Notes: generated by a model not told the origin, from the letters alone. A stretch of 64,000 nt of DNA from an uncultured Gemmatimonadota bacterium (GCA_964626665.1 CAZVGK010000010.1:22850-86849), one strand, 5' to 3'; positions 3,244 through 50,811 are shown, counted from the first letter of the stretch. A program made the numbers and translations.

Positions 3244-3408
3244 AATAATGGAGTTTCTGAATTAAAGGATTCGTCTTATGCTAAAAAACACCGAATGACA
3301 CCGAAAAAAATAGCACTTCATTCTTGAGTGAAACTTTTGTTTTGGATTTGTTCAGTGATTTTCGGTGTTTAATGTCCAACCCGGGATTATTAGAGATGGT
3401 AAAAGCTG

Positions 3409-3747
3409 ATGGGTAAAAATACGAAAAATATACCGGATTTGGAGAGGCTGATCAATTTTATATCCTCGAAATATCTTCCAGAGAAGATCATTCTCTTTGG
3501 CTCTTACGGAACCCCATCAAGACGAGATAATTCCGATATAGACCTGCTGATCATAAAAAAGACAGATAAGAAGTTTGTAGATAGAGTAGTAGAACTGATG
3601 CAGCTCATCAGGAGTCAATTTGGGGTTGAATATCCTGTTGAGCCTCTTGTTTATACTCCAGCCGAATTTAGAGGAGCCGAAATGACAAGCAGTCTATTTA
3701 TTCGGACAGTTTTGTCGAAAGGGGTTATTTTGTATGAAAAAAAATAA
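3409..3747 (+). CDS. Minimal nucleotidyltransferase (MNT antitoxin)
   Basis: 'IILFGS......SDIDLLII' motif; overlaps the downstream HEPN gene. Confidence 0.9.
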   Translation: MGKNTKNIPDLERLINFISSKYLPEKIILFGSYGTPSRRDNSDIDLLIIKKTDKKFVDRVVELMQLIRSQFGVEYPVEPLVYTPAEFRGAEMTSSLFIRTVLSKGVILYEKK

Positions 3748-4141
3748 ACCTGCAGCGGAGATTTGGCTGAGAAAAGCTAAGGAGGATCTTGCCTTTGCGG
3801 AGGCTGGTTGGAAGGAGAGCAAGATAGCATCAGTTACCTGCGTGCTTTGCCAGCAGGCGGTAGAGAAGGCCTTGAAATCTCTTCTGGAATTAGAAAATAT
3901 CAGCATAGAAAGAACCCCGTCTCTTAAGACTCACAGATTGGTGGATATAATTGAGGAATGTAGAGGATATTATCCTCAGGTAGAGATGTTCACCGATGAT
4001 TGTGACAAATTAACGGTCTATTATTTTGATAGGTATCCAGCTGATATTCCCTTGAATTTGACCGAAGAAGATGCCGCATTTGCCCTGGAGACAGCGGAGA
4101 AGATCCTAAGTTCTGTAGAGGGGATAATATCAAAAGCCTGA
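3734..4141 (+). CDS. HEPN domain protein (MNT-HEPN pair)
   Basis: 'WLRKAKEDL..A', 'CQQAVEKALKS', 'KTHRL', 'RYP'. Confidence 0.9.
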   Translation: MKKNKPAAEIWLRKAKEDLAFAEAGWKESKIASVTCVLCQQAVEKALKSLLELENISIERTPSLKTHRLVDIIEECRGYYPQVEMFTDDCDKLTVYYFDRYPADIPLNLTEEDAAFALETAEKILSSVEGIISKA

Positions 4142-4229
4142 AGGGATTGAGGAATCCTTCGCATGATGATGACATCCCCAAAGAGCGATTGGGGATATAT
4201 CCAGAAGATTGTGATGTGAGGAGGTGTTT

Positions 4230-4772: not shown

Positions 4773-4998
4773 AAATAAACTTTAGATTAAGGTTGCATAA
4801 GTGCACACCCTCTATCAGACACTGGAAATCACTGAAACAATGAGAAACTCTGAGGAAGAATGTGCATTATAATTTTTGATTGGTTCGGTGTTATTCGGTA
4901 TTTTCTTGAATAATTTGGAATAAAGGTCCTGTAAATCCTATTATCCGGTCAGAAAAGCCCGCTTGCAGGGCGCTTAGTAGAGTTTAACCCCGGTTTGG

Positions 4999-7331: not shown

Positions 7332-7356
7332 CTTTGTGGATATATATATTCCCAGA

Positions 7357-7510
7357 GTAACAGTTCACCACGGACTCTCACGGAATGGACCACCAGCAAT
7401 GGTCAATTAGCAATTAACAATTAGCAAGTTAAAATGAAATAAAGCCAGAAAATCTGAGGTGTAAAGTTCCATTGATAATTGTCAATTGTTAATTGGTCAT
7501 TTCGTATCTG
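7357..7510. repeat. Composite repeat element (AACAGTTCACCACGGA end plus inverted CAATTAR heptamer arrays), copy 1
   Basis: ~150 bp homologous to 9151-9330. Confidence 0.8.
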
Positions 7511-7520
7511 CTCAGGGTTA

Positions 7521-8354
7521 TCAGCTCTGAATTTTATGCAGATAATCCCAGAGAACCATACTCAAACGGGAGAAATCCTCCAGGCTGAGAACCTCCCCCC
7601 TCAGGGAAGGGTCAATCCCGGCCCGGGAGAAGACCTCATCCTCCTTCCCCGGGGGAAGGAGCTCCTTTAAAGCATTTTTGATAGTTTTTCTCCTCTTTCC
7701 AAATGCCCCCTTGACTAACTTCCTGAAGAAGAGCTCATCTGGAAGGGGAACGGCTGGTTTTTCCCGCACCATTAACCTTAAGACAGTAGCTTCCACTTTG
7801 GGCCTGGGCCGGAAGGAGGAAGGGGAGAGGTCAAACAGCTTAGTGGGGCGGAAGTATAGTTGGGAGATAACCGATAGGGAGCTATAGTCCTTCCCTCCCG
7901 GAGGTGAAGTAACCCTCTTGGCCACTTCCTTCTGTAGGGTTAAGACAATTTGCTTGATCCTCTCCCTCTGAGTAATCAGCTTCTCTATAACCGGAGAGGT
8001 AAGATGATAGGGTATGTTTCCCACAAGCTTCAGATTTCTCCCCCAAGGGGAGAGATCAAATTTTAAGAAGTCCTCACAGAAGATGAGAAGCTTCTCAGAC
8101 TTTAGGTATTCCTCGAGGATCTGATAGAGACGATGGTCTATCTCTACCCCGATCACCTGAGCTCCATACTTAAGGAGTTCTCTGGTGAGGAGACCACTCC
8201 CCGGTCCGATCTCCACTACCACATCCTGGGGGACAAGTTGCAGGTTTTGCGCAATTTTTTGGGCGGCTGCCCGGTTGATGAGGAAATTCTGGCCTAAACT
8301 CCTTTTGGGGAGAAACCTTAGTCCCAGTGAGGGGAGCAGAATTCCCCTCCTCAT
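7521..8354 (-). CDS. rsmA: 16S rRNA m6,6A dimethyltransferase
   Basis: 'KRSLGQNFL', 'VEIGPGSG', 'VGNIPYHLT', 'LQKEVA', 'RRKT'. Confidence 0.97.
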   Translation of the reverse strand: MRRGILLPSLGLRFLPKRSLGQNFLINRAAAQKIAQNLQLVPQDVVVEIGPGSGLLTRELLKYGAQVIGVEIDHRLYQILEEYLKSEKLLIFCEDFLKFDLSPWGRNLKLVGNIPYHLTSPVIEKLITQRERIKQIVLTLQKEVAKRVTSPPGGKDYSSLSVISQLYFRPTKLFDLSPSSFRPRPKVEATVLRLMVREKPAVPLPDELFFRKLVKGAFGKRRKTIKNALKELLPPGKEDEVFSRAGIDPSLRGEVLSLEDFSRLSMVLWDYLHKIQS

Positions 8355-9133
8355 TTGGCCTTTACCTCCGAAAGAGCAAAGAGCCTAATTGCTGCTTGGG
8401 TGGTAGTGGTGACTAAGGTCTCTAGATCCATCCCTTTAGCCAGGGCGATCCTTTCAGCCACCAGTCTTACCCATTTCGGCTCGTTCCTCTCCCCTCGATG
8501 GGGAACCGGGGCCAGGTAGGGACTGTCCGTCTCCAATAGAAGCCTCTCCAAGGGGACTGACTTGGCTACCTCCAGGGCCTGGGATTTGGGAAAGGTAATC
8601 AGTCCGGTAAAGGAGATGTGCAGACCCATAGCCAGTGCCTTTTCCGCCTGTTCTCTGGTCCCCTCAAAGCAGTGGAGAACCCCTTTCCGCCCTCTGTTCT
8701 CCTCCTGGAGAACCCTTAGGGCCTCCTCAACAGCTCCTCTGGTATGCACCACTATGGGGAGATTCAACTCCTGGGCCAATTCTACCTGGGCCCTAAATGC
8801 CACCACCTGATCTGATTTTGGGGAGAGGTTTCTGTAGAAGTCCAACCCTATCTCCCCAATGGCCTTCACTTGAGGGCTCCGGGCAAGTTCCCTCAATTTA
8901 AGCAGGTCGCCCGGCTTAAACCCTTTGGCCTCATGGGGGTGAATACCTACGGCGGCAAAGAGGCCGGCAAACTTTTGGGCAAGCTCGATAGCCATCCGGC
9001 TGGAGGGAAAGTCTATTCCAGGGACGAGGATATGGCCTATTCCCACATCCTTTGCCCTTTGGATAACCTCTTCCCTGTCGGGATCGAACTCGGGGAGGTT
9101 AAGATGGGCGTGGGTATCTATGAAGGGTATCAT
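8351..9133 (-). CDS. tatD: TatD family hydrolase
   Basis: 'IDTHAHL', 'GIHPH', 'IGEIGLD', 'HCF', 'LETDSPYLAP'. Confidence 0.96.
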   Translation of the reverse strand: MIPFIDTHAHLNLPEFDPDREEVIQRAKDVGIGHILVPGIDFPSSRMAIELAQKFAGLFAAVGIHPHEAKGFKPGDLLKLRELARSPQVKAIGEIGLDFYRNLSPKSDQVVAFRAQVELAQELNLPIVVHTRGAVEEALRVLQEENRGRKGVLHCFEGTREQAEKALAMGLHISFTGLITFPKSQALEVAKSVPLERLLLETDSPYLAPVPHRGERNEPKWVRLVAERIALAKGMDLETLVTTTTQAAIRLFALSEVKAK

Positions 9134-9150
9134 CTTTCACCTCAAAAAGA

Positions 9151-9330
9151 TAACAGTCCACCACGGAATCTCACGGAGTGGACCAACATCAATGGTCAAT
9201 TAACAATTAGCAAGTTAAAATGAAATGAAGTCAGAAAATCCTGAGGTGCATGCCATTTTTCATTGATAATTGTTCATTAATCATTGACCATTTCTTCTTC
9301 TGTCCGTGGTTATAAGTTGTGAACTATCTG
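9151..9330. repeat. Composite repeat element, copy 2
   Basis: TAACAGTCCACCACGGAATCTCACGGA ... TCCGTGGT ... GTGAACTAT; homologous to 7357-7510. Confidence 0.8.
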
Positions 9331-9555
9331 CAAAAAAAGTAAATTTGCCCCTCCTGTCAAGCTAAATAAAATGAACCGAGGGCGGGGAATAGCTGAACGG
9401 TCAGGTGCTCCAATGGTCTCCTCCCCTTTGAGTTCTATCAAATGAGGCACCAAAAAGGGGAAGCTACCGGAATCCTCCAGTGACTTCCCCTTTATGGAGT
9501 GAGGTTTTCAGATGTTTTAGATTCCAAACTTGGCCGTCTGCGGCGGGGTTTTTTT

Positions 9556-9610
9556 GACAGGATAACAGGATTTACATGATTTTTATCCCTTTCATCCTGT
9601 CAATCCTGTC
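9556..9610. repeat. GACAGGAT inverted 9-mer element
   Basis: GACAGGATAACAGGATTTACATGA...ATCCTGTCAATCCTGTC; relatives near 19388, 20117-20175 and 22160-22350. Confidence 0.75.
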
Positions 9611-11580: not shown

Positions 11581-12363
11581 GTGAAATATGGAAGACGGAG
11601 TGGCCTCGGTGATGTAATTGGACATTACGCAATTCCTTGGAAAATCCGGTGACCCCCCTTTCCTCATCAATGGAGGTAGACTCCTTATTCCATGCTGACA
11701 GGGCTCCTGCCCTGACAGCCTTCTATCATGATACACGAACCACGCCCCACGGCTCTGGGCTTCCCCAGTTTCTGATTTTCCAGTTTCTGATTTTCGTCTC
11801 TCGTCTCTCGTCTCTCGTCTCTCATTTCTATTTGAGCAGCATCGTCCTCTTGGGATAGGGCAAGCTTAAAATTTTATGAATGCCCCCTCTTTCCCGCCCT
11901 CCGCTTTGCCTTCGAGAGAGACTCCCATTGGTCGGTGTAAGTGAAAGCATATTGGGTTGCAACAGAAAAATAGGAAGTGTCCCGAATTTAAAATGGATTG
12001 AGAGCGATCTCAGGGGATCGCTACAAATAAGAAGGGAGTTAGAGGCCCTAAAAACGAGAATATTGAGCAAGGGCTAAATTAGTAATTAGAGGTTTGACCC
12101 CAATCTTTGACTATGCTAAAATATCCCCCTTTTTCGAGGAGGGTGTCAACAAAAAACTTCCCACTTATCCCAAAGTAGGAGGTCCCGTAAAGTAGACAAT
12201 TGAAACTGTATTTATTTGGCGAAGACGAAGTGGGTTTCCCTTAAAGCCTATGATGGCGCCACAATTATGCAAGTCCTTATGCCTCGGGAATTAGTATAGG
12301 GCCTAACCTTATTTTATAGCTCGCTTCCATACATCTCAATACAATCCCTATATTCCTCCGTAA

Positions 12364-19251: not shown

Positions 19252-19379
19252 TTCAGGTCACTCCTTGTTTAACCCCTTAGATAGCCTTTTATCATTTCGT
19301 GGAGTCCATCTTAAATTAACCATAATGATTAGAGATGTCAAGGCCTTTAGGTTTGGTAGCTTGATAATATAGAAATCCC

Positions 19380-20383
19380 AATTTTTAGACAGGACTGACA
19401 GGATAGATAAAAATCCTGTTATTCCATCAGAGAAGCCCGGCAGCAGGCGGCTAAGGTTTTGGCTCCGATTTTTTAGTCTGGTGGGTTTTCAGTCCTCCGC
19501 ACAAAGCCACGGGAGAAAAACGGAAGCTTACTCACCCACCACAAAACTTCAATTAAGAATTAAGAATGTAGAATTAAGAATGAAAAAGGTCTTGAACACG
19601 AATCCCCCGAATAAACGAATCTACACGAATAGATTTATTTACCACGGAACTACAAAGCTTACCACGGAAACTCACGGGAAAAAGCAATTAAGAATTAAGA
19701 ATGGAGAATTAAGAATGAACAAGGTATTCTGCTATCTCAATTGAATTTAACCGCAGATGAACGCAGATTTTCACAGATTATACAAGAATCTTCAAGAATA
19801 TAGGCTTTCACCTTTTAGGTGAAAGAGGGGCTAAACTCAATTTTTATGAGTTTTTTATTTTGACTATCTTGTGATAATCTTGTGAAATCTCGTGGTTTCC
19901 TAACGCATAATTCGGGTTCAATAGTTCTGTTGAGAATAGAGCAGTGCTGATTTATCAAGCAACTTTTCGCAGGCTACCGATTCTAGAGTGTTTGCAGTAG
20001 ATTCATTTGTGGCTTTGTGCAGAGAACTTTTCATTCGTCCTTCTCGTGGCTTCCAAATAATATAATTGAAGATGGGGCCTCAATCTTACCTGAGAAATTT
20101 TATTTTTTCCATTTTAGACAGGATTGACGGGATGAACAGGATAAATAAAAATCATGTAAGTCCTGTTATCCCGTCAGGGAAGTTCAGCCATAGGCGACTA
20201 AGTCCATCAAATTTCGGATCATCATGTCAACTAATTTTAGAATAGTGCAGGTTAAAAACAAAACCCCCTTGCCGTTGAGGCAAGAGGGTAACTGTCAGGA
20301 TTAGGCGGGACTATAAGAGGGTGGCAGAATCAGGGTTTTGCCACCTCAGTTTTCCCGTCAGGGCAGGAGCCCTACCAGCACGA
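19380..20383. repeat. ~1-kb non-coding patchwork of short repeat elements
   Basis: AGAATTA heptamer arrays (19550, 19685); CACGAAT, CACGGAA and CGCAGAT 9-mers; GACAGGAT elements; GTGGCAGAA and CGTCAGGGCAGGAG hairpins. Confidence 0.75.
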
Positions 20384-22126: not shown

Positions 22127-22366
22127 AACGCAAGGACTTAAAATTTATGTGACTTCTTTGACAGGATAACAGGATTTTCACGATTTAAACTACTCAAGAA
22201 AACGCCGAATGACACCGAAACCACCGAGTAAAGAACACAAACCCAATTTAACAGGCATTTTTAGGTGGGATTCCCCTTTTGATTTCTTGTCATACTGGTG
22301 ATTAATGCATAGTGTAGCTTATTTATCCTGTTTATCCTGTCAATCCTGTCCAAATTTGCCTCTCCG

Positions 22367-25648: not shown

Positions 25649-25714
25649 ATTCCCTCCTTCTCAAGGAAACATTTACTGATCACAACTTATACCTGCTGAT
25701 TAATATGGTGACAC

Positions 25715-25887
25715 TTCACCACGGAATCTCACGGAATTACATAGCGCGGCAAAGCCGCAACCAAACAAGGGCCACAGATTACACGGATTTCACTGAATTT
25801 CTGGAACACGAATGACACGAATAAACGAATCTACACGAATAGATAAGAAAATCATAACGATTCACCACGGAATCTCACGGAATTACA
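25715..25887. repeat. Nested repeat cluster bounded by a perfect 27-bp direct repeat
   Basis: TTCACCACGGAATCTCACGGAATTACA at 25715-25741 and 25861-25887, enclosing GCGGCAAAGCCGCAACC and CACAGATTACACGGAT / CACGAAT arrays. Confidence 0.85.
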
Positions 25888-26309
25888 CTGAGATCCTTTG
25901 TCAATGAATTCTTTGTGAAGCAACTTGCTTGGTTCTAATCCCCCGCTCGTGTGCATGTTATCATCTACAAAATGATTTCTCTCGTCAGGGCAGGAGCCCT
26001 GACGGCACAGGAAATTTTATGGCTTCATACTTTCTTCCTGTGTATAGGGGAAATATAACTTGGTTGGGATGGGGAGTCAAGCTTCAAATTTCCTTCGAAG
26101 CATGGAAACAAGACCACTGATGTATGCTGAGGAGATCGGACAGACCTGAAGGTCTGTCCCTACAGAACTATATCAATTGAGCGGTCAGATCCCCTGATCT
26201 GATCAGAGGGAGGGTGGCAGAACAGGGTTCTACCACCTCGGTATCAACTATGCTTAGCTTTGGAATGATTAAAAGAAATAGGAGATGTTCCAAAGAGCCA
26301 TCTTTCCCC

Positions 26310-26596: not shown

Positions 26597-26805
26597 AAAA
26601 TGAAGAATTAAGAATGGAGAATTAAGAATTAAAAATGAGGGAAACTGTTGGTCTTGGGTGGTTTGGGCGAGGGGGGTGGAGTTGAGCTAAGGGAGATTAG
26701 GTTTGAACTCAACCAAGGTTTGTGCCTTGGTTTTTTTTGTGAAAAAAATAACTTGCCAACCCCAAAATTTTCTTTAGATTGATAGGGAAATGGAAAGGAG
26801 CCTCT

Positions 26806-27069: not shown

Positions 27070-28137
27070 ATGGCCAGGGAGTTGATCAAGGGGAACGAGG
27101 CAGTGGTAAAGGGGGCCATCTTAGCCGGGTGCCGGGCCTATTTCGGTTATCCAATTACCCCGGCCAGTGAGATCGCCCATGCTGCTGCTCGGTATCTCCC
27201 CTTGGTGGGGGGGACATTTATTCAGGGAGAAAGTGAGGTGGCCTCCATTCAGATGGTCTATGGAGCAGCCTCGGCAGGCCAAAGGGCGTTGACGGCATCC
27301 TCCGGCCCGGGAATCAGCTTGAAACAGGAGGGGGTCTCCTATATGGCTGGCTCTGAGCTTCCCTGTGTGATTGTTGATGTGATGAGGGGAGGGCCCGGTT
27401 TGGGGAATATTGCCCCTGAACAGGGTGATTATCATCAAGTGGTCAAAGGCGGTGGCCATGGGAACTACAAGACAATCGTCTTGGCCCCAAACTCCGCTCA
27501 GGAGATGTGTGATCTCACTATGTTGGCCTTCGATCTTGCTGACAAATATAGAAATCCGGCTGTTGTTTTGGCAGATGGCTTTGTGGGACAGATGATGGAG
27601 CCTGTGGAGTTTCCCAAGCCAAAACCGATCAAAGGGGAGAAACCTTGGGTTGTCAATGGGACTAAAGAGATGAGCAAGAACCTGATCACCTCCATCTATC
27701 TTTCCCCTGAGGAGTTAGAGGAGCATGTAATGAAGTTGGCCCGCAAATATGCGGAGGTGGAGGAAAAGGAGCAGCGGTTTGAGGCCTACCAATTAGAGGG
27801 GGCAGAGATTGTCACCATAGGCTATGGCATAGTCTCTCGGATACTCCATACTGTTGTGGATAGGGCAAGGAAGGAAGGGATGAAGATAGGGTTACTGCGG
27901 CCGATTACCCTTTGGCCTTTTCCCAGGAAGAAGATGAAGGAACTAGCCGAGAGCGTGAAGAGTTTCCTGGTGGTGGAGATGAGCACTGGCCAAATGGTTG
28001 ACGATGTGAGGTTGGCCACCGAGGAAAGGAAGCCCGTGCACTTTTATGGAAGGAGTGGGGGAATGGTTCCCTCCGTGGATGAGATTTGGCAAAAGATTAA
28101 AGAGATCACAAATGTAACCGCAGATGAATCTGGATAG
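27070..28137 (+). CDS. vorB: 2-oxoisovalerate:ferredoxin oxidoreductase alpha-type subunit
   Basis: 'KGNEA', 'FGYPITP.SE', '[12 protein letters not shown]', 'RGGPGLGNI', 'KGGGHG'. Confidence 0.9.
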
Positions 28138-28408
28138 GCAAAGCCGCAACCGAATAATTCACCGCAGAGTCGCAAAGAACGCAAAGTTTAAAGATTATTA
28201 ACCAATCGTTTTATTTCATTTCTCTTTTGCTTTTTATCTCCTCTGCGCTTTTTGCGGTAAAAAAACTTTGCCCAAAAAACAAGATCTTGCAAAATTGTAG
28301 CACAGAAAAACAGGGTTCAGTCTTCAGGGATTGGGAATAGCCAGCATAGGTTTCATTCTAAATTCTAAATTCTAAATTCTTAATTGCTTTTTTCCGTGGT
28401 GAACCATT
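28117..28408. repeat. Nested repeat element inside the vor operon
   Basis: CCGCAGATGAA, GGCAAAGCCGCAACC, CGCAGAG/CGCAAAG 9-mers with an inverted copy, TTCTAAA heptamers, TCCGTGGTGAAC end. 28261-28404 is a reverse-complement homolog of 38606-38730. Confidence 0.8.
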
Positions 28409-28429
28409 AAAAGATGAGAGAAAACTGAG

Positions 28430-29896: not shown

Positions 29897-30592
29897 TTAT
29901 AGTAGCCCCAACCAAAACCTGACAGAATTGTTGCTATCTCGGTGATAGGCTTCCTATAGCACGAAAATTGGGACCTTTCCTTATTTGACATTTATCTTCT
30001 CTACTTTTTCTTTAGAAGAAAAAGTAGCAAAAAGAAGCGTGCTTTTCGCCAATCTTTTCCCAGGCCTCTTGCAAACTTAGTGGGTAGGGAAACTCCCTTC
30101 TCCTTCGCTCTCCGATCCCCATAAATGGGGAGCGAAGAATTGCCCACCCCTTGATAGGCTCTGGATACTCTTTTGCCAAATCCTGCGGCGAAAAGCACAA
30201 TCCCCCCACCTGGAGAGAGTATCCCTGATAGGTCGGGATGCCAAACATAGATTATACGAGCAATGGATGGTTGCTCCGCATGTTAAAGTCCAGAAGCGGA
30301 TCACTTTTTTTCCCAAAAGTGAAGGTGGGCCTTCAGCCTCCACACAAAGCCACGGGAGAAATGCGGAAACATCCAGCCCACCAGAAAAGTCAATTAAGAA
30401 TTGAGAATTGAGAATGAAAGAAACTCCCCTAAGTGGCAGAATCGGGGTTCTGCCACCTCTTCTTTGCAATAATTTCCTCTCCCTTCGATGGCGAGGGGGA
30501 AAACCAAAAAATTACTCACCCTCTCCTTAGTCCTCCCCCATCAAGGGGGGAGGAAATCGTTTATGCGCGTCGCTCGCCGGGGATTATCCCCG

Positions 30593-37290: not shown

Positions 37291-37300
37291 GCCTCCCTGA

Positions 37301-37474
37301 GTAACAGCTCACCACGGAATCTCACGGAATGACACACCTCTTTTCTCTACCGTTAGAACTCCTCTCCTGACGGCTTGAAAATAGAAATTGGAAAATTGCA
37401 ATTCCCTCTGCCATCATCTGACGGCAGATCGATGTCCGAAGGCATCTCCTGCAACCCTCCCTGGTGAACTATTG
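37301..37474. mobile_element. MITE-like element between ftsW and murG
   Basis: Left end TAACAGCTCACCAC, right end GGTGAACTATTG (inverted); the right end contains the ftsW stop. Confidence 0.65.
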
Positions 37475-38581: not shown

Positions 38582-38600
38582 TTAGGTCTCCTTACATTAT

Positions 38601-38929
38601 TAACAGTTCACCACGGAATCTCACGGAGAAAAGCAATTATGAATTGAGAATTAAGAATGAGGTTCATGCTGATCCCCGTTTTTCTGTACTATAATTTTGC
38701 AAGCCCTCATTTTTTTTAACAAAGTTTTTCAGGCTACCTTAAGTGGATAACTTCTACCGCACTTTAGTGCGGGTTCAGGGCCTTTAGACCCCTTGGGTTT
38801 GAGTCCAGTCAACGGGCTAAAGCCCTGTCAACCCTCGGCTAAAGCCGGGTAGAAGAACACTTGACGTTAAGTAGTTTTTTTCTGTCTATGAAATCCGTGT
38901 AATCCGTGGTTATCTGTGGTGAACTATTG
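38601..38929. mobile_element. MITE-like element between murD and ftsW with a nested CTTCTAC...GTAGAAG REP-like unit
   Basis: Ends TAACAGTTCACCACGGA / TCTGTGGTGAACTATTG; inner hairpin unit at 38751-38855. Confidence 0.7.
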
Positions 38930-40366: not shown

Positions 40367-41995
40367 CTATTCCTTCCGGATGATCACATCTTTTCCTTTG
40401 AGGATCAATGGTTTGCCGATTGTTAGTGTGGGAGCAGAGAAGGTGTTGTCAGACCCAGCCTTGAATATCAGTGTCGCATTATCAGGAACCTCGGCGATTG
40501 CCTCTTCAATATCTTCATACGGATCATCCGGACTGCCATCGCCGGGATTGGAGTCGCCGACAAACTTCACCACATTTAACGGAGCTATACGGGTGACATG
40601 GTGCTGTTTTAGGTTAAAAAATTCTGGGACATTGTCACAGGAGTACCAGCCATCCCAAAATCCGCCCCACCCTAAGTTCATCTTGAACTGCCTGTCCGGA
40701 TCGGTTGTCTTATTATAACCGAATACAACCCAGGCGTGTCCTCCCCCACCCAAGGTGTCCGCCCGATAACCAGAGAACTCCATAGGCCGCAGCCATTGAA
40801 TTTCCTCGGTCATCGTATTTATGTTCCTTGTTCCATAGGTGGCATCGTAGTCGTACCTGAAGTGATCCTCGAGAGCATCGTCGACATCTGATGGATATGC
40901 CCCAGAACTCTTAATCCCATAATTCATTCCAACGGCAATACCGGCGTGATAGCACAGCTTGGCCACCTCGGCATCTCCATTATCAGGTGGATCTGAATGC
41001 GTATCCTCTATGATACTCCAGTTGTAGTTTGTGGCCCCAAAATTGGCATTACAGTTAGTTGAAGCTTGCGTGAGCCTGTTCCAGAGGGTTTCGAGGGCAT
41101 TTAAATAATCCGCATCGTCACTTATATTTTGTGCCCCCCCATAGAGGGAATTATCCCAGTAGCCGTTCATCCGCAGTTTGTCCCCACCCGCCGCGGTCCA
41201 TTCGAGCCGTCCCCCGCCGGCCCAATTTGGTGGAATTTTTGGGTCCTTTGCCAGCGGTTCCTCATCCCAGTTGTTTCTCCATCGGTAATAATAGACCGTG
41301 CCACCAGTGCTTTGTCCAGTGTTCGGCCATTTCCAGTAGTACATTATCTGGGACATAGCCGTGGCGACGCAGCCGACCACGCAGTGTTCATCGACTCCAG
41401 GGGTAAGTTCGGGGCATTGGTCATTGTATGGCGAGCCCTGGGACCATTGGGAGGTTAGATCGAGCTCCATCATTATAGGTTCAGCCTTGGCCTTGTTTTC
41501 CTCTATTCTTAGTGGAATGCGACCGGCAATAAGATCCTGCCAGGATGAGGCCCTCTCAGCCAAAGCTTTTTGATACTGGAGCAGCTTAGGGTCCCCTCCC
41601 ATCAATCCCTCACGCAGATGTTTTAGCCTGGTCTCGATCTCCCAGAGGATATATTGATAGTCTGGATTCTGAGGGTCATATCTCCCGTAGGGACTGTAGA
41701 AGTAGACAGGGAGAACCAGATTATCAGGGCCACAAAGACAGAAACCACCACCGGAGAGATGAGCGATGTAAGCAATGGTTTCTCCTTTAACTTTATGGGG
41801 TTCCATCCTCTCGATGACGGCATCAGGTCTCGCATCAGCAGTGACATAACGCACCCAGGTTTGGACGGCAGCTCGGACTTCTTCTGGCGACAACTGTTTT
41901 GCCTGGAGTAACCCAGGTAATAAGATCAAGGAGGCAAGCAGCAGAGATACCAAAGGCCAGGCCCTCTTGCAGGCTTTGTCTTTAATCGGCTTCAT
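40367..41995 (-). CDS. Secreted C10 (streptopain-like) cysteine peptidase with pro-domain
   Basis: 'WSQGSPYN..CP', 'VGCVATAMSQIMYYWKWP', 'GHAWVVFGY', 'MNLGWGG'. Confidence 0.93.
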   Translation of the reverse strand: MKPIKDKACKRAWPLVSLLLASLILLPGLLQAKQLSPEEVRAAVQTWVRYVTADARPDAVIERMEPHKVKGETIAYIAHLSGGGFCLCGPDNLVLPVYFYSPYGRYDPQNPDYQYILWEIETRLKHLREGLMGGDPKLLQYQKALAERASSWQDLIAGRIPLRIEENKAKAEPIMMELDLTSQWSQGSPYNDQCPELTPGVDEHCVVGCVATAMSQIMYYWKWPNTGQSTGGTVYYYRWRNNWDEEPLAKDPKIPPNWAGGGRLEWTAAGGDKLRMNGYWDNSLYGGAQNISDDADYLNALETLWNRLTQASTNCNANFGATNYNWSIIEDTHSDPPDNGDAEVAKLCYHAGIAVGMNYGIKSSGAYPSDVDDALEDHFRYDYDATYGTRNINTMTEEIQWLRPMEFSGYRADTLGGGGHAWVVFGYNKTTDPDRQFKMNLGWGGFWDGWYSCDNVPEFFNLKQHHVTRIAPLNVVKFVGDSNPGDGSPDDPYEDIEEAIAEVPDNATLIFKAGSDNTFSAPTLTIGKPLILKGKDVIIRKE

Positions 41996-42010
41996 CAGAA
42001 GGCCTCCTTT

Positions 42011-43756
42011 CTATTGCAGGCTGACCAGAACAAGAACCAGGCCTTGCCCTTGATCAAGTGAATTCATTGCCTTGCCAAGGATGGCACCTTGAGCCTGGGC
42101 ATAGTCAGTGACCTTCATAGCGTGGCCCGGAGTTGCTGATGTGGTCAGCAAATCTCCAGGTTGAATGGAGCCATTTGAAACATCGGTCCAACAATAGACC
42201 CGCCCGGTCAGTGCTACTGGGTGTGCTCCATCAGCTTTGGAACCTCTCTGTCCCATTAGCATTCCAGGTTCAATGCCTCCCGCGCCACTAATCACACCCG
42301 CTACCTTGCGATCATAGGCTTTTTTGCTGACTATCAATTTCCCCGGGTGTTCAGGATCAATGCACACCACCATTCCAGGTTTGGCATCTACCTTATCTTG
42401 CTTGATATCGAACTGCTCGGATAAATCGCTTCCTCCAGTAAGTTGGAGCACGGAGCACACAATCTTCCCATCGTTTTCTACCTTGAAGACGGGATCCCAA
42501 CCGCCGGTCCAGCTATCGCAGCGGAGTATGTCACCACCGCCATGTTGTCTTAAAAGTAGAGTTAGGTCACTTGAGGTGTTGTCCACACTCAGGCCAATGC
42601 CATCAGGATCGTCATTTTCTATCCTCGCAGTAGCACCGGATACGCCACTGCCTGAAGACTTCACATAGAGTCTGTGGCTTCCTGTACTTGAAGTTCCGAT
42701 GCCGACCTTGCCCTGCACCAACATCCCATTGCTCGGAGCAGTGGATGAGCCTGAATATGTTGATCCGACTACCATTGCTCCTTCTACATCGAGCCTATTT
42801 TTAGGGTTTGTCGTCCCAAGGCCGATGTTGCCGGTATCTTTTACATAAAGCCTTGTTGACCCTTCATCAGTTTTTAATGCCAATCCACCGCTGTCCCTTG
42901 CTCGGATGTAATCATCTACCCGAAGGCCACCAACAACTTCCAATTTATCGTTCGGCGAGTTTGTCCCGATGCCGACTTTGCCATCAAAGTAACCAGCTAT
43001 TGCCTCCTCCGAAAGGCTAGTGTCGGCCTCTGCAGAAATTCCAATATAACCCTTTCCAGATATTCCAACTGACCCTTCACCGTATACGCCACAGAGCAAG
43101 CCAGTTCCCCAGACTCCAGTGCCAAATCCTCCATGACCTTTGATTGTCCCGTTAACTTCCAACTTAGCCTCCGGGCTCGTCGTCCCGATGCCTACATTGC
43201 CGCTCTTGGAGAAGTAACAATCATTCCCAGAGCAAATCCAGCAACCGGAGCCTTCACCTCCACTTGAGCGAAAAGAATAGGGGACACTTGCTAATTTCTT
43301 CCTCGGTAAGAGCACTCCCCGTCCAATGGCCGTCCCCAACCAAAGTCCCTGGCCAGTAAAGATCGTATCGGGAAGGGAATTGACACTTCCCAAAAACAGG
43401 TTGAAAAAACCGCCTATTACTGGCACCTGGGAGTGGGTTTCACTCCAGAGGAGATTTCCACCGTTGGCTTGGTCGTAGATGGCGAAACCTATCTCCAGGG
43501 TATCGGTGACCGCTGAACTATCGCTGGAGTTTGCCAAGTAACCCTGGTAATTTATTTGTTGGGGAACACTTTTGGTGCCAAGAGGGGGGCTGACCGAATA
43601 TCTATCACCTTCCGGTGACTGAACCCCGTTTTTCGGAGTCCTCAAACCTGTGCCTGTTGCGGCTATCCTCTCCTTGCTTCCACCTAATACTGAGACTGCT
43701 ACAAAAGCAAGGAGACCAACTATTGCCAAAATGGCAATTATTCCCTTAACCTTCAT
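42011..43756 (-). CDS. Secreted fibre-like protein with GxVGIGT repeats and putative C-terminal intramolecular-chaperone domain
   Basis: Signal peptide, 'PQQINYQGYL', four G(N/K)(V/I)G(I/L)GT repeats, 'GGSDLSEQF...GVISG...VALTGRV...GDLL'. Confidence 0.75.
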   Translation of the reverse strand: MKVKGIIAILAIVGLLAFVAVSVLGGSKERIAATGTGLRTPKNGVQSPEGDRYSVSPPLGTKSVPQQINYQGYLANSSDSSAVTDTLEIGFAIYDQANGGNLLWSETHSQVPVIGGFFNLFLGSVNSLPDTIFTGQGLWLGTAIGRGVLLPRKKLASVPYSFRSSGGEGSGCWICSGNDCYFSKSGNVGIGTTSPEAKLEVNGTIKGHGGFGTGVWGTGLLCGVYGEGSVGISGKGYIGISAEADTSLSEEAIAGYFDGKVGIGTNSPNDKLEVVGGLRVDDYIRARDSGGLALKTDEGSTRLYVKDTGNIGLGTTNPKNRLDVEGAMVVGSTYSGSSTAPSNGMLVQGKVGIGTSSTGSHRLYVKSSGSGVSGATARIENDDPDGIGLSVDNTSSDLTLLLRQHGGGDILRCDSWTGGWDPVFKVENDGKIVCSVLQLTGGSDLSEQFDIKQDKVDAKPGMVVCIDPEHPGKLIVSKKAYDRKVAGVISGAGGIEPGMLMGQRGSKADGAHPVALTGRVYCWTDVSNGSIQPGDLLTTSATPGHAMKVTDYAQAQGAILGKAMNSLDQGQGLVLVLVSLQ

Positions 43757-43810
43757 TGTGTGTGACCTCCTTTGGATTGGAAAATCGTGCGAAATAAAGG
43801 TCTCCTCTCT

Positions 43811-44389
43811 CTATTTCAGCAACAATAGTTTCTTGCTCGAAGAATACTTGCCCACTTCGAGCCGATAAAGGTAGACTCCACTTGCCAACTCCCTTCCATA
43901 ATCATCCCTTGCATCCCAGACCACTGAATAATACCCAGGAGCTTGTTCTTTATCCACCAGGGTTCTTACCAACTGTCCCAGCACATTGTAAACCTTTAAG
44001 GTGACAGCCATCCGCGGACCTTCTTCTGCCGACAATTGGTAGCGAACGATGGTGGTTGGGTTAAACGGATTTGGATAATTCTGGGATAAACCATACTCCT
44101 TGGGTAAAGGTATTTCTGGGTGCGAACCGCTGCTTACTCCACTTGACCGCCAAGGCGGCACCCCCGGATGCCAAAACCCAACAGCCTCGATGTAAGTAGC
44201 ATTAGAGCTTATTCCTATGACTGTCTGTCCGAGAGTGGTTCCAAGTAGATATTTACTATTCTCGGCTTCTCCGCCAGATGAGGATAGAGCATCCGAAAAG
44301 ATAATATAACCAGCCTCAGAGGTAACACCAAAAATGCAAAGAAGCAAAGCAGCAAAGAGTATAAAAGCGACCTTGAATGGTTGCATCAA
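43811..44389 (-). CDS. Small secreted protein with FlgD/T9SS-A-like C-terminal domain
   Basis: Signal peptide, 'TLGQ..IG', 'GFW', 'LSQNYPNPFNP...SGVYLYRL'. Confidence 0.85.
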   Translation of the reverse strand: MMQPFKVAFILFAALLLCIFGVTSEAGYIIFSDALSSSGGEAENSKYLLGTTLGQTVIGISSNATYIEAVGFWHPGVPPWRSSGVSSGSHPEIPLPKEYGLSQNYPNPFNPTTIVRYQLSAEEGPRMAVTLKVYNVLGQLVRTLVDKEQAPGYYSVVWDARDDYGRELASGVYLYRLEVGKYSSSKKLLLLK

Positions 44390-44512
44390 TTACCCCCTTT
44401 ATTTGGTTTGTTTCCCAAATACGCCCTAAAAACTAATCATTTTTAACTGTGGCAACACCTCCTCCCTATATTAGGCAATGGGATCGGACCATCTACTCTG
44501 AAGATTCATTTA

Positions 44513-45598: not shown

Positions 45599-45783
45599 TG
45601 GCTTCCTCTGTTCTACAATTTGGCAAGAGCTTGTTTTTTAATACGGTTTTTCAGGTTACCTCTTTCCGTTTTGAATGAAGAAATTAGAAAATGGAAAATA
45701 GAAAAAGAACTACACTCTGAGCGACTCAGTGGTGACTATTCACCGTCAGTTTTTGCTTTTTCGCCTTCTCGGCTTTTGGCTTT

Positions 45784-48602: not shown

Positions 48603-50455
48603 TGGGACGAACAGAGTAGATGACATCTCAACCCTTGAGCCAGGAGTTTGCCTGGCCGGGGTTCCTGTGCAGTTATTATCCCCTCTCCCTTTACCTCTAT
48701 CCGCAGATTGTGGCCAGAGAGCAGGGAGAGTGCCCTCCTTAAACTCATCCCTCGGAGATCAGGCATCAGCCTAGAGGGGGTGGGGGAGAGGGTCAGCTTA
48801 ACCTTTGTCCCCTTGTGAACCAGACTACCCGGAGCCGGGGTTTGGGAGGTGATGGTTTGGCCTGTTCCCTCTTTCTTCCCTATAAGTACCCTCCTCCCAA
48901 GGATCTCCCTACCCTGAGAGATGCTTAAGTTCTGCAGGTTGGGGACTACCACATAGGAGTAGGTTTTGTCCTCCCCTTGGATGATGTGCCTCTCTGGTAG
49001 CCCTTCCCGGGAGAGTATCCTCTCCATTATCCGGCGGAAGACCGGCGCTGCTCCCTTGCTGCCTGGGCGATCCCGTTTGGGTTCATCCAAAACCACCAGG
49101 CCGGCCCATTTGGGCTTTGCCGCGGGAAGATAACCGACAAAGGAGGAAATTAAATTGCCCTGTGAATATCCTCCCTTATCCGGGTCAGGCTTCTGAGCGG
49201 TCCCTGTCTTCCCTGCCACTCTTATCCCCTCTATCTTAGCCCCTTTTCCGGTTCCCCTCTCCACCACGCCAACAAGGAGGTTGGTGATCAGATGGGCAGT
49301 AGAGGGGGAGATGGCCCGCCGAATGGGGGAGGGGGGATACTCCCTGATTGGCTTTCCCTCTTGGTTGAGGATAGCCTTAAGGAAGTGGGGTTGCATAAGG
49401 AGGCCGTCGTTGGCCACACAAGAATAAGCGTTGAGCAACTGCAGGGGGGTGACAGAGACCTCCTGCCCTATGGATATTGAGGCCAAGGAGAGGCCAGACC
49501 ACTCCTCTGGAGGTTTCAAGGTTCCTTTAGGTTCTCCAGGGAAGTCAACTCCTGTGGGCGAGCCGAAGCCCAAAGAACGGGCATATCTGTAAAGATTGTC
49601 CCTACCCACCTTCTTGGCCACCTTTATCACCCCTACATTGCTTGATTTCTCGATTACCTTTCTGAAGGTCAGCCAGCCGAATTTTCCGTTATCCCTAATA
49701 GGAATGCCGAAAATCTTTATGGATCCGTTTTCGCACCAAATCGAATCCGTGGGTGATATTATCCTCTCCTCCAAGGCCGCTGCCATCATGATTAACTTAA
49801 AGGTGGATCCTGGCTCAAATTGATCGGTTATCGCCCTGTTTCGTCTCTGTGGAGGTTTGGATCTTCGAGGGAGGTTGGGGTCATATGAGGGGAGGTTGGC
49901 AATAGCCAATATATCGCCTGTGGCCGGAGAGATGATGATGGCCGATCCCCCTTTGGCCCCTGTCCTCTCCACTCCCCTCTCCAATTCCTCCTGACAGATG
50001 CGTTGGTAGTCCGCATCAATGGTTAAGCAAAGGTTTTCTCCTCCCTGGGAAGGGGTGGGCAGGCCAGGGGGGGAGAATCTGTTCCCTTTCGCATCGGTGA
50101 GCAAGACCAGCCCAGGGCCATCCCCTCTCAGGTATTGGTCATAATAGAGCTCCTCTCCCTCCATTCCCTCATCGTCGAGGTTGGAAAAGCCTACCACATG
50201 GCAGAGGGAGGGCCCTAAGGGATACCATCTTCCCTGATCAAGGTTGGTGGCCAGGAGGTGAAAGTTCCTGTCGAATATCTTTCCCCTTTCCCCTCCTTCC
50301 CTCAGCCTGATTACCTGCTGACAGAGGGCCTTACTTAGATATTTGTGATGATGCAGGATCTGGATGGAAAAGAGGGTAGAGAGGAGGAATAGCCATAATG
50401 CCCCCCCCATTGCTCCCAAGATGATCAACCTTTTTTTATGCTGTTTGCCGAGCAT
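48599..50455 (-). CDS. ftsI: Division penicillin-binding protein (PBP3) with two PASTA domains
   Basis: STFK, SSN and KTG motifs; 'VPNL' and 'MPDL' PASTA repeats; start at ATG 50455. Confidence 0.95.
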   Translation of the reverse strand: MLGKQHKKRLIILGAMGGALWLFLLSTLFSIQILHHHKYLSKALCQQVIRLREGGERGKIFDRNFHLLATNLDQGRWYPLGPSLCHVVGFSNLDDEGMEGEELYYDQYLRGDGPGLVLLTDAKGNRFSPPGLPTPSQGGENLCLTIDADYQRICQEELERGVERTGAKGGSAIIISPATGDILAIANLPSYDPNLPRRSKPPQRRNRAITDQFEPGSTFKLIMMAAALEERIISPTDSIWCENGSIKIFGIPIRDNGKFGWLTFRKVIEKSSNVGVIKVAKKVGRDNLYRYARSLGFGSPTGVDFPGEPKGTLKPPEEWSGLSLASISIGQEVSVTPLQLLNAYSCVANDGLLMQPHFLKAILNQEGKPIREYPPSPIRRAISPSTAHLITNLLVGVVERGTGKGAKIEGIRVAGKTGTAQKPDPDKGGYSQGNLISSFVGYLPAAKPKWAGLVVLDEPKRDRPGSKGAAPVFRRIMERILSREGLPERHIIQGEDKTYSYVVVPNLQNLSISQGREILGRRVLIGKKEGTGQTITSQTPAPGSLVHKGTKVKLTLSPTPSRLMPDLRGMSLRRALSLLSGHNLRIEVKGEGIITAQEPRPGKLLAQGLRCHLLCSSQ

Positions 50456-50520
50456 CTTCCTTCTTGGACATTGTGCCCCCTTAAAATGGTATGATTGAGG
50501 GGCCTTCCACAATCTTTGCT

Positions 50521-50811
50521 AACATAGTGCAGCAAAGCCGCAACCAAAGAATCATCGTGTCGTTATCGTAGCTCGTTACTCGTTCCCCCTGAACCCTACG
50601 CTTCTACCCCCGCTAAAGCGGGGGGTAACTTCTTCTGGGCTTTAGCCCGTTAACCGCGCTGAAGTAAGGTAGAAATGTTTTACTCATCACCCCCCGAAAA
50701 AACTTTGCACAAAACTCGTTACTCATGAAGTCCTCGATGTTTAGGCTTTTTCGTCATTTGAAATTAGGATTTCGTCATTAACTTAAGACCCGCGCTAAAG
50801 TGCGGTAGAAG
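50521..50811. repeat. Nested repeat cluster between ftsL and ftsI
   Basis: GCAAAGCCGCAACCAAA...AAAACTTTGC frame with CTTCTAC/GTAGAA hairpin units and TCGT heptamers. Confidence 0.7.

What the first reader, a model, noticed from the sequence alone, without database searches (positions are those of the whole stretch)
3289..50811. Genome-wide grammar of inverted short-period arrays (7-mer and 9/10-mer), often nested
Seen: unrelated sequences share one architecture of 2-4 tandem units, a spacer, then the inverted units. Examples: CACCGAATG (3289-3368), CACTG/TTCGGT (4818-4900), GACAGGAT (9556, 20117, 22160-22350), CGCAGAG (28162-28258), CACGGAATCT (7368, 9162, 25717, 37312, 38612), CAATTAR (7397/7470), AGAATTA (19550, 19685, 26600, 30391, 38635), CGTCTCT x4 (11794). 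The 22160 element holds a CACCGAA array inside it. From recollection (not verified), such arrays flank GxxExxY and four-helix-bundle genes; none is in this window. Inference: empty, non-autonomous members of a poorly described mobile system in which period and symmetry are conserved rather than sequence.
Basis: partly seen in the sequence, partly recalled or inferred. Interest (0 to 1): 0.8.

Follow-up and report, generated by a model that had tools for sequence, protein, structure and literature searches.

The report
Gene-less relics of hairpin-armed gene cassettes
The short repeat arrays between this bacterium's genes are the leftover arms of small selfish cassettes that elsewhere carry one of two tiny orphan genes, and each gene family has its own style of repeat.

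Summary
The arrays are real, non-random and almost all intergenic. About half of the cited examples have the array-spacer-inverted-array build. The rest are lone arms or direct duplicates.

All belong to dispersed families (7-21 near-full copies, 80-94% identity). Several match the arms of gene-bearing cassettes elsewhere in this genome, which carry a four-helix-bundle (PF05635) or a GxxExxY (PF13366) gene. The window holds neither gene.

Congeners lack these inserts, or carry different ones, at the same gene junctions. One 505-bp four-helix-bundle cassette has at least 4 copies and perfect 8-bp target duplications.

The grammar has two dialects. In diverse genomes, four-helix-bundle arms had period 7 in 16 of 19 cases. 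GxxExxY arms had period 7 in 0 of 19 (periods 8-13), usually with a conserved CAC-N-GAG core.

G-U wobble showed no strand asymmetry, so nothing here supports RNA-level selection. I found no IS66, ISL3 or IS256 transposase. Five array-rich genomes lack GxxExxY altogether.

Verdict: gene-less, MITE-like relics of IVS-type cassettes. Earlier notes of this scan report the same cassettes on this genome and others. In the searched literature I found only the Coxiella 23S rRNA insert.

The parts
3286..3370 (.). CACCGAA foldback: two units, a 37-nt spacer, then inverted units
   Evidence: Arms 3286-3309/3347-3370, score 23, period 10. Sequence.
4815..4905 (.). CACTG/CACCGAA foldback, one member of a 7-copy family
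   Evidence: 7 copies covering >=70% of its length at 79-85% identity. Alignment.
7355..7520 (.). Composite element between ksgA and the next gene: GTAAC terminus, CACGG units (7369-7389), CAATTAR arms (7398-7427/7472-7501)
   Evidence: Score 35, period 7. 10-copy family. Absent in congener G001, which has a 2-nt spacer. ksgA is extended by 4 codons into the insert.
9150..9330 (.). Second copy of the CACGG/CAATTA composite, downstream of tatD
   Evidence: Arms 9189-9235/9240-9287. Termini aligned with the 10 copies.
9554..9603 (.). GACAGGAT compact foldback
   Evidence: Palindrome found. 21 copies covering >=70% of its length. Alignment.
11794..11823 (.). CGTCTC x4.3: lone 3' arm of a CGAGAGA-type four-helix-bundle cassette
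   Evidence: TRF 100% match. No inverted partner. 91% over 32 nt to the 3' arm of the cassette at C5:63880.
19375..19435 (.). GACAGGA foldback, degenerate
   Evidence: Sequence. Family hits.
19491..20028 (.). Mosaic bounded by a 20-nt inverted repeat. It holds AATTAAG arms (19551-19582 and 19686-19717, direct), a CACGAAT lone arm (19594-19634), CACGGAA units (19663-19684) and CGCAGAT/CACAGAT units (19752-19787) facing CTTGTGA units (19867-19894).
   Evidence: The 19740-19925 part is a 12-copy family. 19866-19899 matches the 3' arm of the GxxExxY cassette at C3:130822.
20105..20185 (.). GACAGGAT foldback
   Evidence: Arms 20118-20142/20161-20176, score 26. 15 copies.
22158..22343 (.). GACAGGAT arms enclosing a nested CACCGAA array (22203-22223)
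   Evidence: Score 29, periods 8 and 9. Nested array. Sequence.
25700..25900 (.). Mosaic: CACGGAATCT x2 at 25720 and 25866 (direct), CACAGATTACACGGAT at 25773, and a lone CACGAAT 5' arm at 25803-25849
   Evidence: 96% over 47 nt to the 5' arm of the broken GxxExxY cassette at C4:52225.
26599..26636 (+). AATTAAG lone 5' arm, upstream of the 2-oxoacid:ferredoxin oxidoreductase genes
   Evidence: TRF. 91% to the 5' arm of the four-helix-bundle cassette at C5:59103.
28145..28262 (.). CGCAGAG/CGCAAAG foldback between the oxidoreductase alpha and beta genes
   Evidence: 12 copies covering >=70% of its length; the best seven listed are 90.4-93.5% alike. Alignment. Its loop keeps 28 nt (96%) spanning the last 15 nt of the GxxExxY ORF at C15:61338. 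Congener G002 has an unrelated spacer of about 110 nt.
28355..28405 (-). ATTCTAA array (inverse of AATTAAG) followed by a TTCCGTGGTGAA terminus
   Evidence: TRF 95% match. 88% to the C5:59103 arm.
30330..30420 (+). Left-end module with an AATTGAG array (30392-30415), downstream of ftsZ
   Evidence: 81% to 19481-19580 and to a copy on C15.
37305..37470 (.). CACGG-terminated element filling the murG-ftsW spacer. It supplies the ftsW stop codon.
   Evidence: The same spacer differs in all three congeners (178, 100 and 320 nt).
38600..38925 (.). CACGG-armed composite filling the ftsW-murD spacer: arms 38612-38632/38898-38918, a lone AATTAAG arm (38635-38658) and a cluster of REP-like hairpins (38745-38860)
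   Evidence: Congener G002 has a 31-nt spacer that keeps only the 16-nt terminus. Metagenome contig depth over it is 10-90 times the flank depth.
45679..45709 (.). AGAAAAT array in the mraY-murF spacer; family link uncertain
   Evidence: TRF. Only one short other hit in the genome. It resembles the GAAAATG arms of cassettes in G001 and G002.
50527..50590 (.). GCAAAGCCGCAACC leader module followed by a TCGTTAC array, in the ftsI-ftsL spacer
   Evidence: The same leader precedes other arrays at 25745 and 28135.

Best explanation
The arrays are the arms, or what is left of them, of small selfish cassettes. These have the build known from ORF-bearing intervening sequences of 23S rRNA.

An intact cassette is a 0.4-0.5 kb unit. 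A 5' array of short units ends at the start codon of one small gene. An inverted array follows the stop codon.

There are two dialects:
- Four-helix-bundle (PF05635) genes sit between arrays of period 7, with variable unit sequence.
- GxxExxY (PF13366, PD-(D/E)XK) genes sit between arrays of period 8-11, built on a C[AG]C-N-GA(G/A/T) core.

Cassettes lodge between the stop and start codons of neighbouring genes. They lose their gene by internal deletion. The resulting foldbacks multiply as MITE-like repeats, insert into one another and decay to lone arms. The window holds only such gene-less forms.

Shown here: the cassette-to-relic link, multicopy dispersal, differences between congeners, 8-bp target duplications for one gene-bearing family, and the two dialects.

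Inferred: that the gene-less forms are moved in trans, that the arms are recognised at the DNA level by the cargo protein or another factor, and that hairpins in operon transcripts are cut by RNase III as in rRNA.
For: 1. Cassette build:
- Of 24 PF05635 or GxxExxY matches in this genome, 19 were aligned arm to arm. 16 of them have inverted arms of score >=34 (flanks).
- 15 of 18 cassettes in relatives G001, G002 and G006 score >=24.
- In diverse genomes, 27 of 31 GxxExxY loci and 21 of 26 four-helix-bundle loci score >=30.

2. Unbiased ranking: among 3,142 ORFs, the 40 with the most complementary flanks include 7 PF05635 and 3 PF13366 genes.

3. Window pieces match cassette arms at 88-96% identity, and the CGCAGAG foldback keeps the 3' end of the ORF.

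4. Dispersal:
- Families have 7-21 near-full copies.
- 27% of intergenic bases have >=3 other copies, against 0.6% of coding bases.
- The same families occur in congener G001 at 90-94% identity, while orthologous genes are 78-80% alike.

5. Turnover at gene junctions:
- murD|ftsW is 342 nt here and 31 nt in G002.
- ftsW|murG differs in three congeners.
- The spacer is absent in four genomes of family f2.
- The ksgA junction is 189 nt here and 2 nt in G001.
- The cas1|cas2 junction holds unrelated four-helix-bundle cassettes here and in G001/G002.

6. Transposition:
- A 505-bp cassette has two full copies (98% alike) and end pieces on four contig ends, so at least 4 copies.
- Perfect 8-bp duplications flank C7, C11 and the C60/C59 pair.

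7. Dialects:
- Period 7 in 16 of 19 four-helix-bundle arms, against 0 of 19 GxxExxY arms (Fisher 9e-8).
- Triple CRCRGAG arrays occur in 55 of 301 genomes, 37 of which carry GxxExxY (odds ratio 13.7).
- One genome has 230 arrays and 2 genes.

8. The catalytic D, E and K are invariant in 26 of 26 GxxExxY proteins.

9. Published parallel: the Coxiella IVS has three GACAGAT heptamers before the S23p start codon, inside a 28-bp stem cut by RNase III (PMC4990558, passages read).
Against: - Arm mismatches show no strand bias for G-U. 150 are compatible with the sense strand and 140 with the antisense strand (binomial p 0.6). Transversions number 358. So selection on an RNA stem is not detectable.
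- No target duplication is evident in the 8 copies of the window's CACGG/CAATTA family whose ends I compared by eye. Two show 6 of 8 matching bases.
- No IS66, ISL3 or IS256 transposase was found in this assembly. The enzyme behind the 8-bp duplications is unknown.
- Five genomes with 14-72 CACAGAG-type arrays have no GxxExxY homologue at E <=0.001. 18 of 55 array-bearing genomes lack it at E <=1e-25. So a resident gene is not needed for the arrays to be present.
- GxxExxY paralogues within three genomes are at most 71% alike, which gives no sign of recent copying there.
- Four cassettes sit at the same sites in congeners, so many insertions are old.
- Co-orientation with neighbours (28 of 30) is no higher than the genome background of 87%.
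- No RNA data exist for this organism.
Confidence: 0.72

Rival explanations
1. The hairpins are host-selected RNA elements. They would be RNase III processing sites or 3'-end stabilisers that tune expression between the genes of an operon, as REP/BIME elements can. They would not be selfish DNA.
For: - They sit exactly between stop and start codons inside operons: dcw, the oxidoreductase genes, ksgA/tatD.
- The rRNA version is cut by RNase III (PMC4990558).
- Arms supply stop codons and short C-terminal tails.
Against: - No G-U strand asymmetry: 150 against 140.
- Presence differs between congeners at 4 of 4 junctions compared.
- Lone arms and nested mosaics would not fold.
- The recently copied cassette on C11 lies antisense to both neighbours.
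- Copies run to dozens per genome.
Confidence: 0.12
2. They are REP/REPIN-type repeats spread by the genome's Y1 (IS200/RAYT-like) transposases.
For: - Four Y1_Tnp genes rank among the 40 ORFs with the most complementary flanks.
- REP-like hairpins are mixed into the same spacers.
- Earlier notes e1-1212897 and e1-1212898 file other repeats of this genome as REP/RAYT.
Against: - The arms around the Y1 genes are non-periodic palindromes of different sequence (best lag match 0.36-0.56).
- The periodic arrays match the arms of four-helix-bundle and GxxExxY cassettes instead.
- Y1 enzymes make no target duplication (from my own knowledge of IS200/IS605), yet the 505-bp cassette has 8-bp ones.
Confidence: 0.06
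3. The arrays are ordinary MITEs or mobile insertion cassettes of a conventional DDE insertion sequence (IS66-like ends: GTAA termini and 8-bp duplications). The small genes would be passive cargo, and the periodic arrays a by-product of slippage.
For: - GTAAC...GTTAC termini and 8-bp duplications on the 505-bp cassette.
- GTAAC termini also on the window's CACGG/CAATTA family.
- Earlier notes e1-2076631 and e1-2377959 reached the same reading elsewhere.
- That IS66 ends start with GTAA and duplicate 8 bp is recalled, not tested.
Against: - No IS66, ISL3 or IS256 transposase in this assembly, and no IS66 in the two congeners. Multicopy IS are often unassembled, so this is weak.
- It does not explain why the period follows the cargo family.
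- It does not explain why the CACAGAG core is kept across diverse genomes.
- Most GxxExxY cassettes show no recent copies.
Confidence: 0.1

Closest known systems
ORF-bearing intervening sequences of 23S rRNA (Coxiella burnetii, Leptospira; S23p ORF). PMC4990558: passages read.
   Same: - A small PF05635 gene sits in the loop of a long stem made by inverted ends.
- Tandem heptamers lie directly before the start codon.
- The number of heptamers varies between strains.
   Different: - These elements lie between protein-coding genes, not in rRNA helices.
- The window's copies have no gene.
- A second cargo family (GxxExxY) has its own arm type.
- They are multicopy, with target duplications in one family.
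- RNase III cutting is untested here.
MITEs and mobile insertion cassettes (named from my own knowledge and from earlier notes)
   Same: - Short, transposase-less, bounded by inverted ends and multicopy.
- Derived from longer elements by internal deletion.
- An 8-bp target duplication in the 505-bp family.
   Different: - No cognate transposase was found.
- The arms are internally periodic arrays rather than one binding site.
- Arm type follows the cargo gene.
REP/BIME and REPIN-RAYT systems
   Same: Hairpin-forming intergenic repeats, often clustered and nested between operon genes. Y1 transposases are present in this genome.
   Different: The arrays are periodic and match other cassettes. 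The genome's Y1 genes are flanked by different, non-periodic hairpins.
Cyanobacterial STRR heptamer repeats and TAACTGA-type repeats of large sulfur bacteria (recalled; one search, listed one paper, which I did not open)
   Same: Tandem heptamers scattered through intergenic DNA, of unknown function.
   Different: I found no published link of those repeats to inverted arms or to these two gene families. The host here comes from a salt-marsh sediment metagenome.

Membership tests
ORF-bearing 23S rRNA intervening sequence | Inserted in helix 25 or 45 of the 23S rRNA gene | tested here: not met
   All window elements lie between protein-coding genes. Rfam finds only two tRNAs in the window.
ORF-bearing 23S rRNA intervening sequence | Inverted ends that can form a long stem | tested here: met
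   for the window. for gene-bearing cassettes.
ORF-bearing 23S rRNA intervening sequence | PF05635 (S23p) ORF in the loop, with tandem heptamers before its start codon | tested here: not met
   No PF05635 match on the window's contig. The feature is met by cassettes elsewhere in the genome.
ORF-bearing 23S rRNA intervening sequence | Excision of the stem by RNase III | not testable with these tools
   No RNA run holds this DNA. G-U asymmetry, an indirect proxy, was absent.
MITE / mobile insertion cassette | Terminal inverted repeats and many dispersed copies | tested here: met
MITE / mobile insertion cassette | Target-site duplication of fixed length | tested here: inconclusive
   Perfect 8 bp at three copies of the 505-bp gene-bearing cassette. 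In the window's CACGG/CAATTA family none of the 8 copies whose ends I compared by eye is clear, and two show 6 of 8 bases. At 7332-7520 an imperfect 8-13 bp repeat flanks the insert.
MITE / mobile insertion cassette | A cognate transposase with the same ends in the genome | tested here: not met
   No PF03050, PF01610 or PF00872 match. The one DDE_Tnp_1 gene has other ends. The assembly may miss multicopy IS.
REP/REPIN-RAYT | A Y1 transposase gene flanked by the same repeat unit | tested here: not met
   The Y1 genes on C21, C2 and C58 are flanked by non-periodic palindromes.
Gene-less derivative of a GxxExxY or four-helix-bundle cassette (the working class of this scan) | Arms alignable to those of a gene-bearing cassette, with remnants of the gene's ends | tested here: met
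   Five window families match cassette arms at 88-96%. One keeps the last 15 nt of the ORF.

The most novel reading that the evidence does not exclude
The two orphan proteins may be the recognition or cleavage subunits of a so far undescribed kind of foldback transposon.

- The GxxExxY PD-(D/E)XK nuclease would bind arrays of CAC-N-GAG sites spaced at 8-11 bp in both arms.
- The pentameric four-helix-bundle protein would bind heptamer arrays.
- Each would move its own cassette, and in trans the far more numerous gene-less foldbacks.

This would explain heptamer-type repeats in many bacterial phyla, and how protein-coding inserts reached 23S rRNA.
Probability: 0.2. Interest if true: 0.85.

Novelty: new variant of a known kind. 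Interest (0 to 1): 0.6.

Why it matters
PF05635 and PF13366 are large families of unknown function. In this sample they occur in 81 and 69 of 301 genomes. Only 3 papers in the searched library name any of their accession numbers.

Short tandem intergenic repeats, such as the cyanobacterial heptamers, have lacked an explanation for decades (this is recalled).

Tying the repeats to these genes gives bench-testable hypotheses for both. The dialects make the tie concrete: period 7 with one family, a conserved core at 8-11 bp with the other.

It also warns annotators. About a quarter of the intergenic DNA here is such debris, and it rewrites stop codons and gene tails inside essential operons.

Tried and rejected
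- RNA evidence: no RNA holder was listed for window 36800-39400.
- Population polymorphism:
  - I laid contigs of 4 salt-marsh DNA runs on that stretch.
  - Contigs break at the element (38630 and 38972).
  - The summed depth of all contigs laid over its modules is 10-90 times that of the flanks, and it includes other organisms.
  - No contig bridges an empty site, so nothing can be said on polymorphism within the population.
- G-U asymmetry, as a test for RNA-level selection, was negative.
- Co-orientation of cassettes with their neighbours is no different from background.
- My first hairpin counter merged whole palindromes into one arm. I debugged it and replaced it.
- Recent intragenomic copies of GxxExxY cassettes in three multi-copy genomes: none found.
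- The G006 cassette with GGTGATC arms is unrelated in sequence to this genome's GGTAATC cassette. That gives no evidence of transfer.
- Terminator reading: the hairpins mostly lack a T-run by eye. I did not run the terminator scan.
- Considered and dropped: that AATTAAG at 26599 and its inverse at 28355 form one 1.7-kb cassette around the oxidoreductase genes. They are more simply two lone arms.
- I did not test the claim that a protein reads its repeat base by base.
Full report
**What the window is.** It is chromosomal DNA with ordinary genes (Pfam scan of 49 ORFs):
- the dcw cell-division cluster, mraZ to ftsZ, on the minus strand (30593-52668);
- a 2-oxoacid:ferredoxin oxidoreductase operon (26779-29857);
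- ksgA and tatD (7521-9133);
- toxin-antitoxin pairs and secreted proteins.

Rfam finds only two tRNAs. The window is contig C10:22850-86849 of a 3.17-Mb, 63-contig assembly. The DNA runs that hold it are salt-marsh metagenomes. Earlier notes call the organism a Zixibacteria relative; I did not test that.

It is not chance.
- The 36 intergenic regions (12,663 nt) hold 12 hairpins of score >=22, against 2.4 +/- 1.5 in 60 dinucleotide shuffles. Four have periodic arms, against 0.03 in shuffles.
- 15 of 19 arrays of two or more C[AG]C-N1-2-GA units lie in the intergenic fifth of the window (p 5e-8).
- Genome-wide, TRF gives 675 period-7 arrays against 280 in one shuffle, and 114 against 14 for period 14.
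- Of 696 non-coding arrays of period 7-11, 106 have an inverted partner within 700 nt, against 25 in a mismatched-flank control. Direct partners are 57 against 15.

So the inverted build is real but not universal. In the window it holds for roughly half of the cited examples. CGTCTCT x4, all five AGAATTA arrays and the 25720/25866 pair are lone or direct.

**What the arrays belong to.** This genome has 16 PF05635 and 8 GxxExxY matches, none on the window's contig.
- The flanks of 23 matches were printed and 19 were aligned arm to arm. In 16 of those 19 the two arms are complementary at score >=34.
- Almost every gene has a 5' array ending at its start codon and an inverted array after its stop. 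Each cassette has its own unit: GTCAGNN, GAGCAAG, GGTAATC, GAGTCAN, AATTAAG, TTGCAAA, CCTAAAT, CGAGAGA, CGCAAAG, CACAAGAT, CACGAAT.
- As an unbiased check I ranked all 3,142 ORFs of >=60 aa by complementarity between their upstream and downstream flanks. The top 40 hold 7 PF05635 genes, 3 PF13366 genes, 4 Y1 transposases and 1 DDE transposase. Only 24 matches to the two families exist in the whole genome.
- The arms around the Y1 and DDE genes are not periodic. They are a separate class.

**The window's pieces are relics of such cassettes.**
- 25803-25849 is 96% identical over 47 nt to the 5' arm of the broken GxxExxY cassette at C4:52225.
- 19866-19899 matches the 3' arm of the cassette at C3:130822.
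- The AATTAAG arrays match the 5' arm of the four-helix-bundle cassette at C5:59103 (91-94%).
- 11792-11823 matches the 3' arm of the cassette at C5:63880.
- The loop of the CGCAGAG foldback keeps 28 nt (96%) that span the last 15 nt of the GxxExxY ORF at C15:61338. This is the signature of an internal deletion.

Each window element is a member of a dispersed family. Counting copies that cover >=70% of the query: GACAGGAT foldback 21, CGCAGAG 12, CAATTA composite 8, CACTG 7. In all, 27% of the window's intergenic bases have three or more other copies, against 0.6% of coding bases. Mosaics such as 19491-20028, 22158-22343 and 38600-38925 are elements inside elements, mixed with REP-like hairpins.

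**Are they mobile?**
- Junctions compared with the two congeners and with family f2 differ.
  - murD|ftsW is 342 nt here. In G002 it is 31 nt and keeps only the 16-nt terminus.
  - ftsW|murG holds three different fillings (178, 100 and 320 nt).
  - In four f2 genomes the genes abut or overlap.
  - The 189-nt insert at 7332-7520 is missing in G001, where 2 nt separate the genes. Here ksgA reads 4 codons into the insert.
  - The oxidoreductase alpha|beta spacer is 292 nt here. In G002 it is about 110 unrelated nt.
  - At cas1|cas2 this genome has a CGAGAGA-armed four-helix-bundle cassette, while G001 and G002 have an unrelated GAAAATG-armed one.
- The families are also dispersed in G001 at 90-94% identity, above the 78-80% of orthologous genes.
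- A 505-bp cassette (GTAAC...GTTAC ends, GGTAATC arrays, PF05635 gene) has two full copies 98% alike and end pieces on four contig ends, so at least 4 copies. It has perfect 8-bp duplications: TTTAATTC on C7, AATTGAAA on C11 and AATTCTGG on C60/C59. The last pair is joined only by inference across contig ends.

Against easy generalisation:
- The window's CACGG/CAATTA family shows no clear duplication in the 8 copies whose ends I compared by eye.
- Four cassettes sit at the same sites in congeners.
- GxxExxY paralogues in three other genomes are at most 71% alike.

**Two dialects.** I took the best-scoring locus or loci from a sample of 301 genomes for each family. GxxExxY is present in 69 of 301 and PF05635 in 81 of 301. 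I measured the arms in 31 and 26 usable loci.
- Inverted arms of score >=30: 27 of 31 and 21 of 26.
- Among clearly periodic arms, four-helix-bundle arms have period 7 in 16 of 19, period 8 in 2 and period 9 in 1.
- GxxExxY arms have period 7 in 0 of 19: period 8 in 10, period 9 in 3, period 10 in 4, and periods 11 and 13 in one each (Fisher 9e-8).
- Two or more C[AG]C-N1-2-GA motifs occur in 17 of 27 GxxExxY arms, against 4 of 21 four-helix-bundle arms.

So the window's CACGGAA, CACCGAA, CACGAAT, CACAGAT and CGCAGAG arrays are GxxExxY-type. GACAGGAT appears to be too: one GxxExxY locus, L154, has such arms. AATTAAG, CAATTAR and CGTCTCT are four-helix-bundle-type.

A triple CRCRGAG pattern occurs in 55 of 301 genomes. 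Forward and reverse counts are nearly equal, and the reversed control is near zero in most genomes. 37 of the 55 carry GxxExxY (odds ratio 13.7). Arrays far outnumber genes: 230 to 2, 118 to 1, 103 to 2. These genomes are kin to varying degrees, so the p-values overstate.

The catalytic D, E and K and the G-E-Y motif are invariant in 26 of 26 proteins. No solved structure matches GxxExxY by sequence. The four-helix-bundle protein matches two uncharacterised entries with five chains each, 2rld and 2gsc.

**What argues against the bolder steps.**
- Arm mismatches show no preference for G-U on the gene's sense strand (150 against 140) and many transversions (358). Nothing shows selection on an RNA stem.
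- No IS66, ISL3 or IS256 transposase is in the assembly.
- Five genomes with 14-72 arrays have no GxxExxY homologue at all.
- Co-orientation with neighbours matches the background.

So the mover is unknown, and a resident cargo gene is not required for arrays to persist.

**Known relatives and novelty.** The closest published thing is the ORF-bearing IVS of 23S rRNA. In Coxiella, three GACAGAT heptamers precede the S23p start codon, inside a 28-bp stem cut by RNase III (PMC4990558, passages read).

Searches for the family accessions returned 3 papers.
- One lists PF13366 as 'Unknown' with multiple transfers (PMC3424549, passage read).
- One likens PF05635 to Avd (PMC10053308, passages read).

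A search for 'GxxExxY' found 3 papers, with one occurrence of the term in each of the two listed; I did not open them. Two searches combining heptamers, inverted repeats and these genes found only the Coxiella paper and one unrelated paper. I read no supplements.

Within this scan the cassette type has been reported many times, including on this genome. The 8-bp duplication with GTAAC ends also appears in earlier notes. A word search of the notes for the dialect rule found nothing.

Noticed in passing
L009:1380-3318 (own genome C5, about 59.0-60.9 kb): A CRISPR array with a 37-nt repeat ending ...CCATTAAAACAAGGATTGAAAC has normal spacers of about 36 nt at one end. After that, at least six units follow in which the spacer is replaced by a roughly 125-nt AATTAAG foldback. 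The last unit holds a complete four-helix-bundle cassette. Part of the array is masked as N.
   Followed up: partly
window 40367-44389: Three genes interrupt the dcw cluster between murD and mraY: a Peptidase_C10 protein, a 581-aa protein with no family, and a small protein with a Por_Secre_tail sorting domain.
   Followed up: no
window 25741-25763, 28135-28152, 50527-50548: A shared leader module, (AGCGCG)GCAAAGCCGCAACCAAA, precedes arrays of different unit sequence. It also occurs in the ftsW-murG spacer of congener G001.
   Followed up: partly
window 11695-11725, 20350-20375, 25983-26006; 20318-20347, 26213-26240, 30434-30458: Two further small palindromic repeat families occur that are not periodic arrays: GTCAGGGCAGGAGCCCTGAC-type and GGTGGCAGAA...TTCTGCCACC-type.
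   Followed up: no
own genome C21:25817-26482, C21:28857-29522, C2:27756-28364, C58:3346-4317: Four Y1 (IS200-like) transposase genes are flanked by non-periodic hairpins such as AAAATAGGGACACTTCCTATTTT. This is a REP/RAYT-like system separate from the arrays.
   Followed up: partly
window 24221-25390: A 126-nt (and 378-nt) tandem repeat lies inside the 1,093-aa TPR-CHAT gene. It is a coding repeat of TPR units and has nothing to do with the arrays.
   Followed up: no
window 37466-37470 and 38924-38929; own genome C5 about 64.2 kb: Element ends supply stop codons and short C-terminal tails to host genes. ftsW gains one residue, ksgA gains four, and cas1 reads into the 5' arm.
   Followed up: partly
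window 25700-25900 and 28137-28247, compared with genome G001: Repeat families are 90-94% identical between this genome and congener G001, while orthologous genes are 78-80% identical. This points to recent spread or to selection on the repeats.
   Followed up: partly
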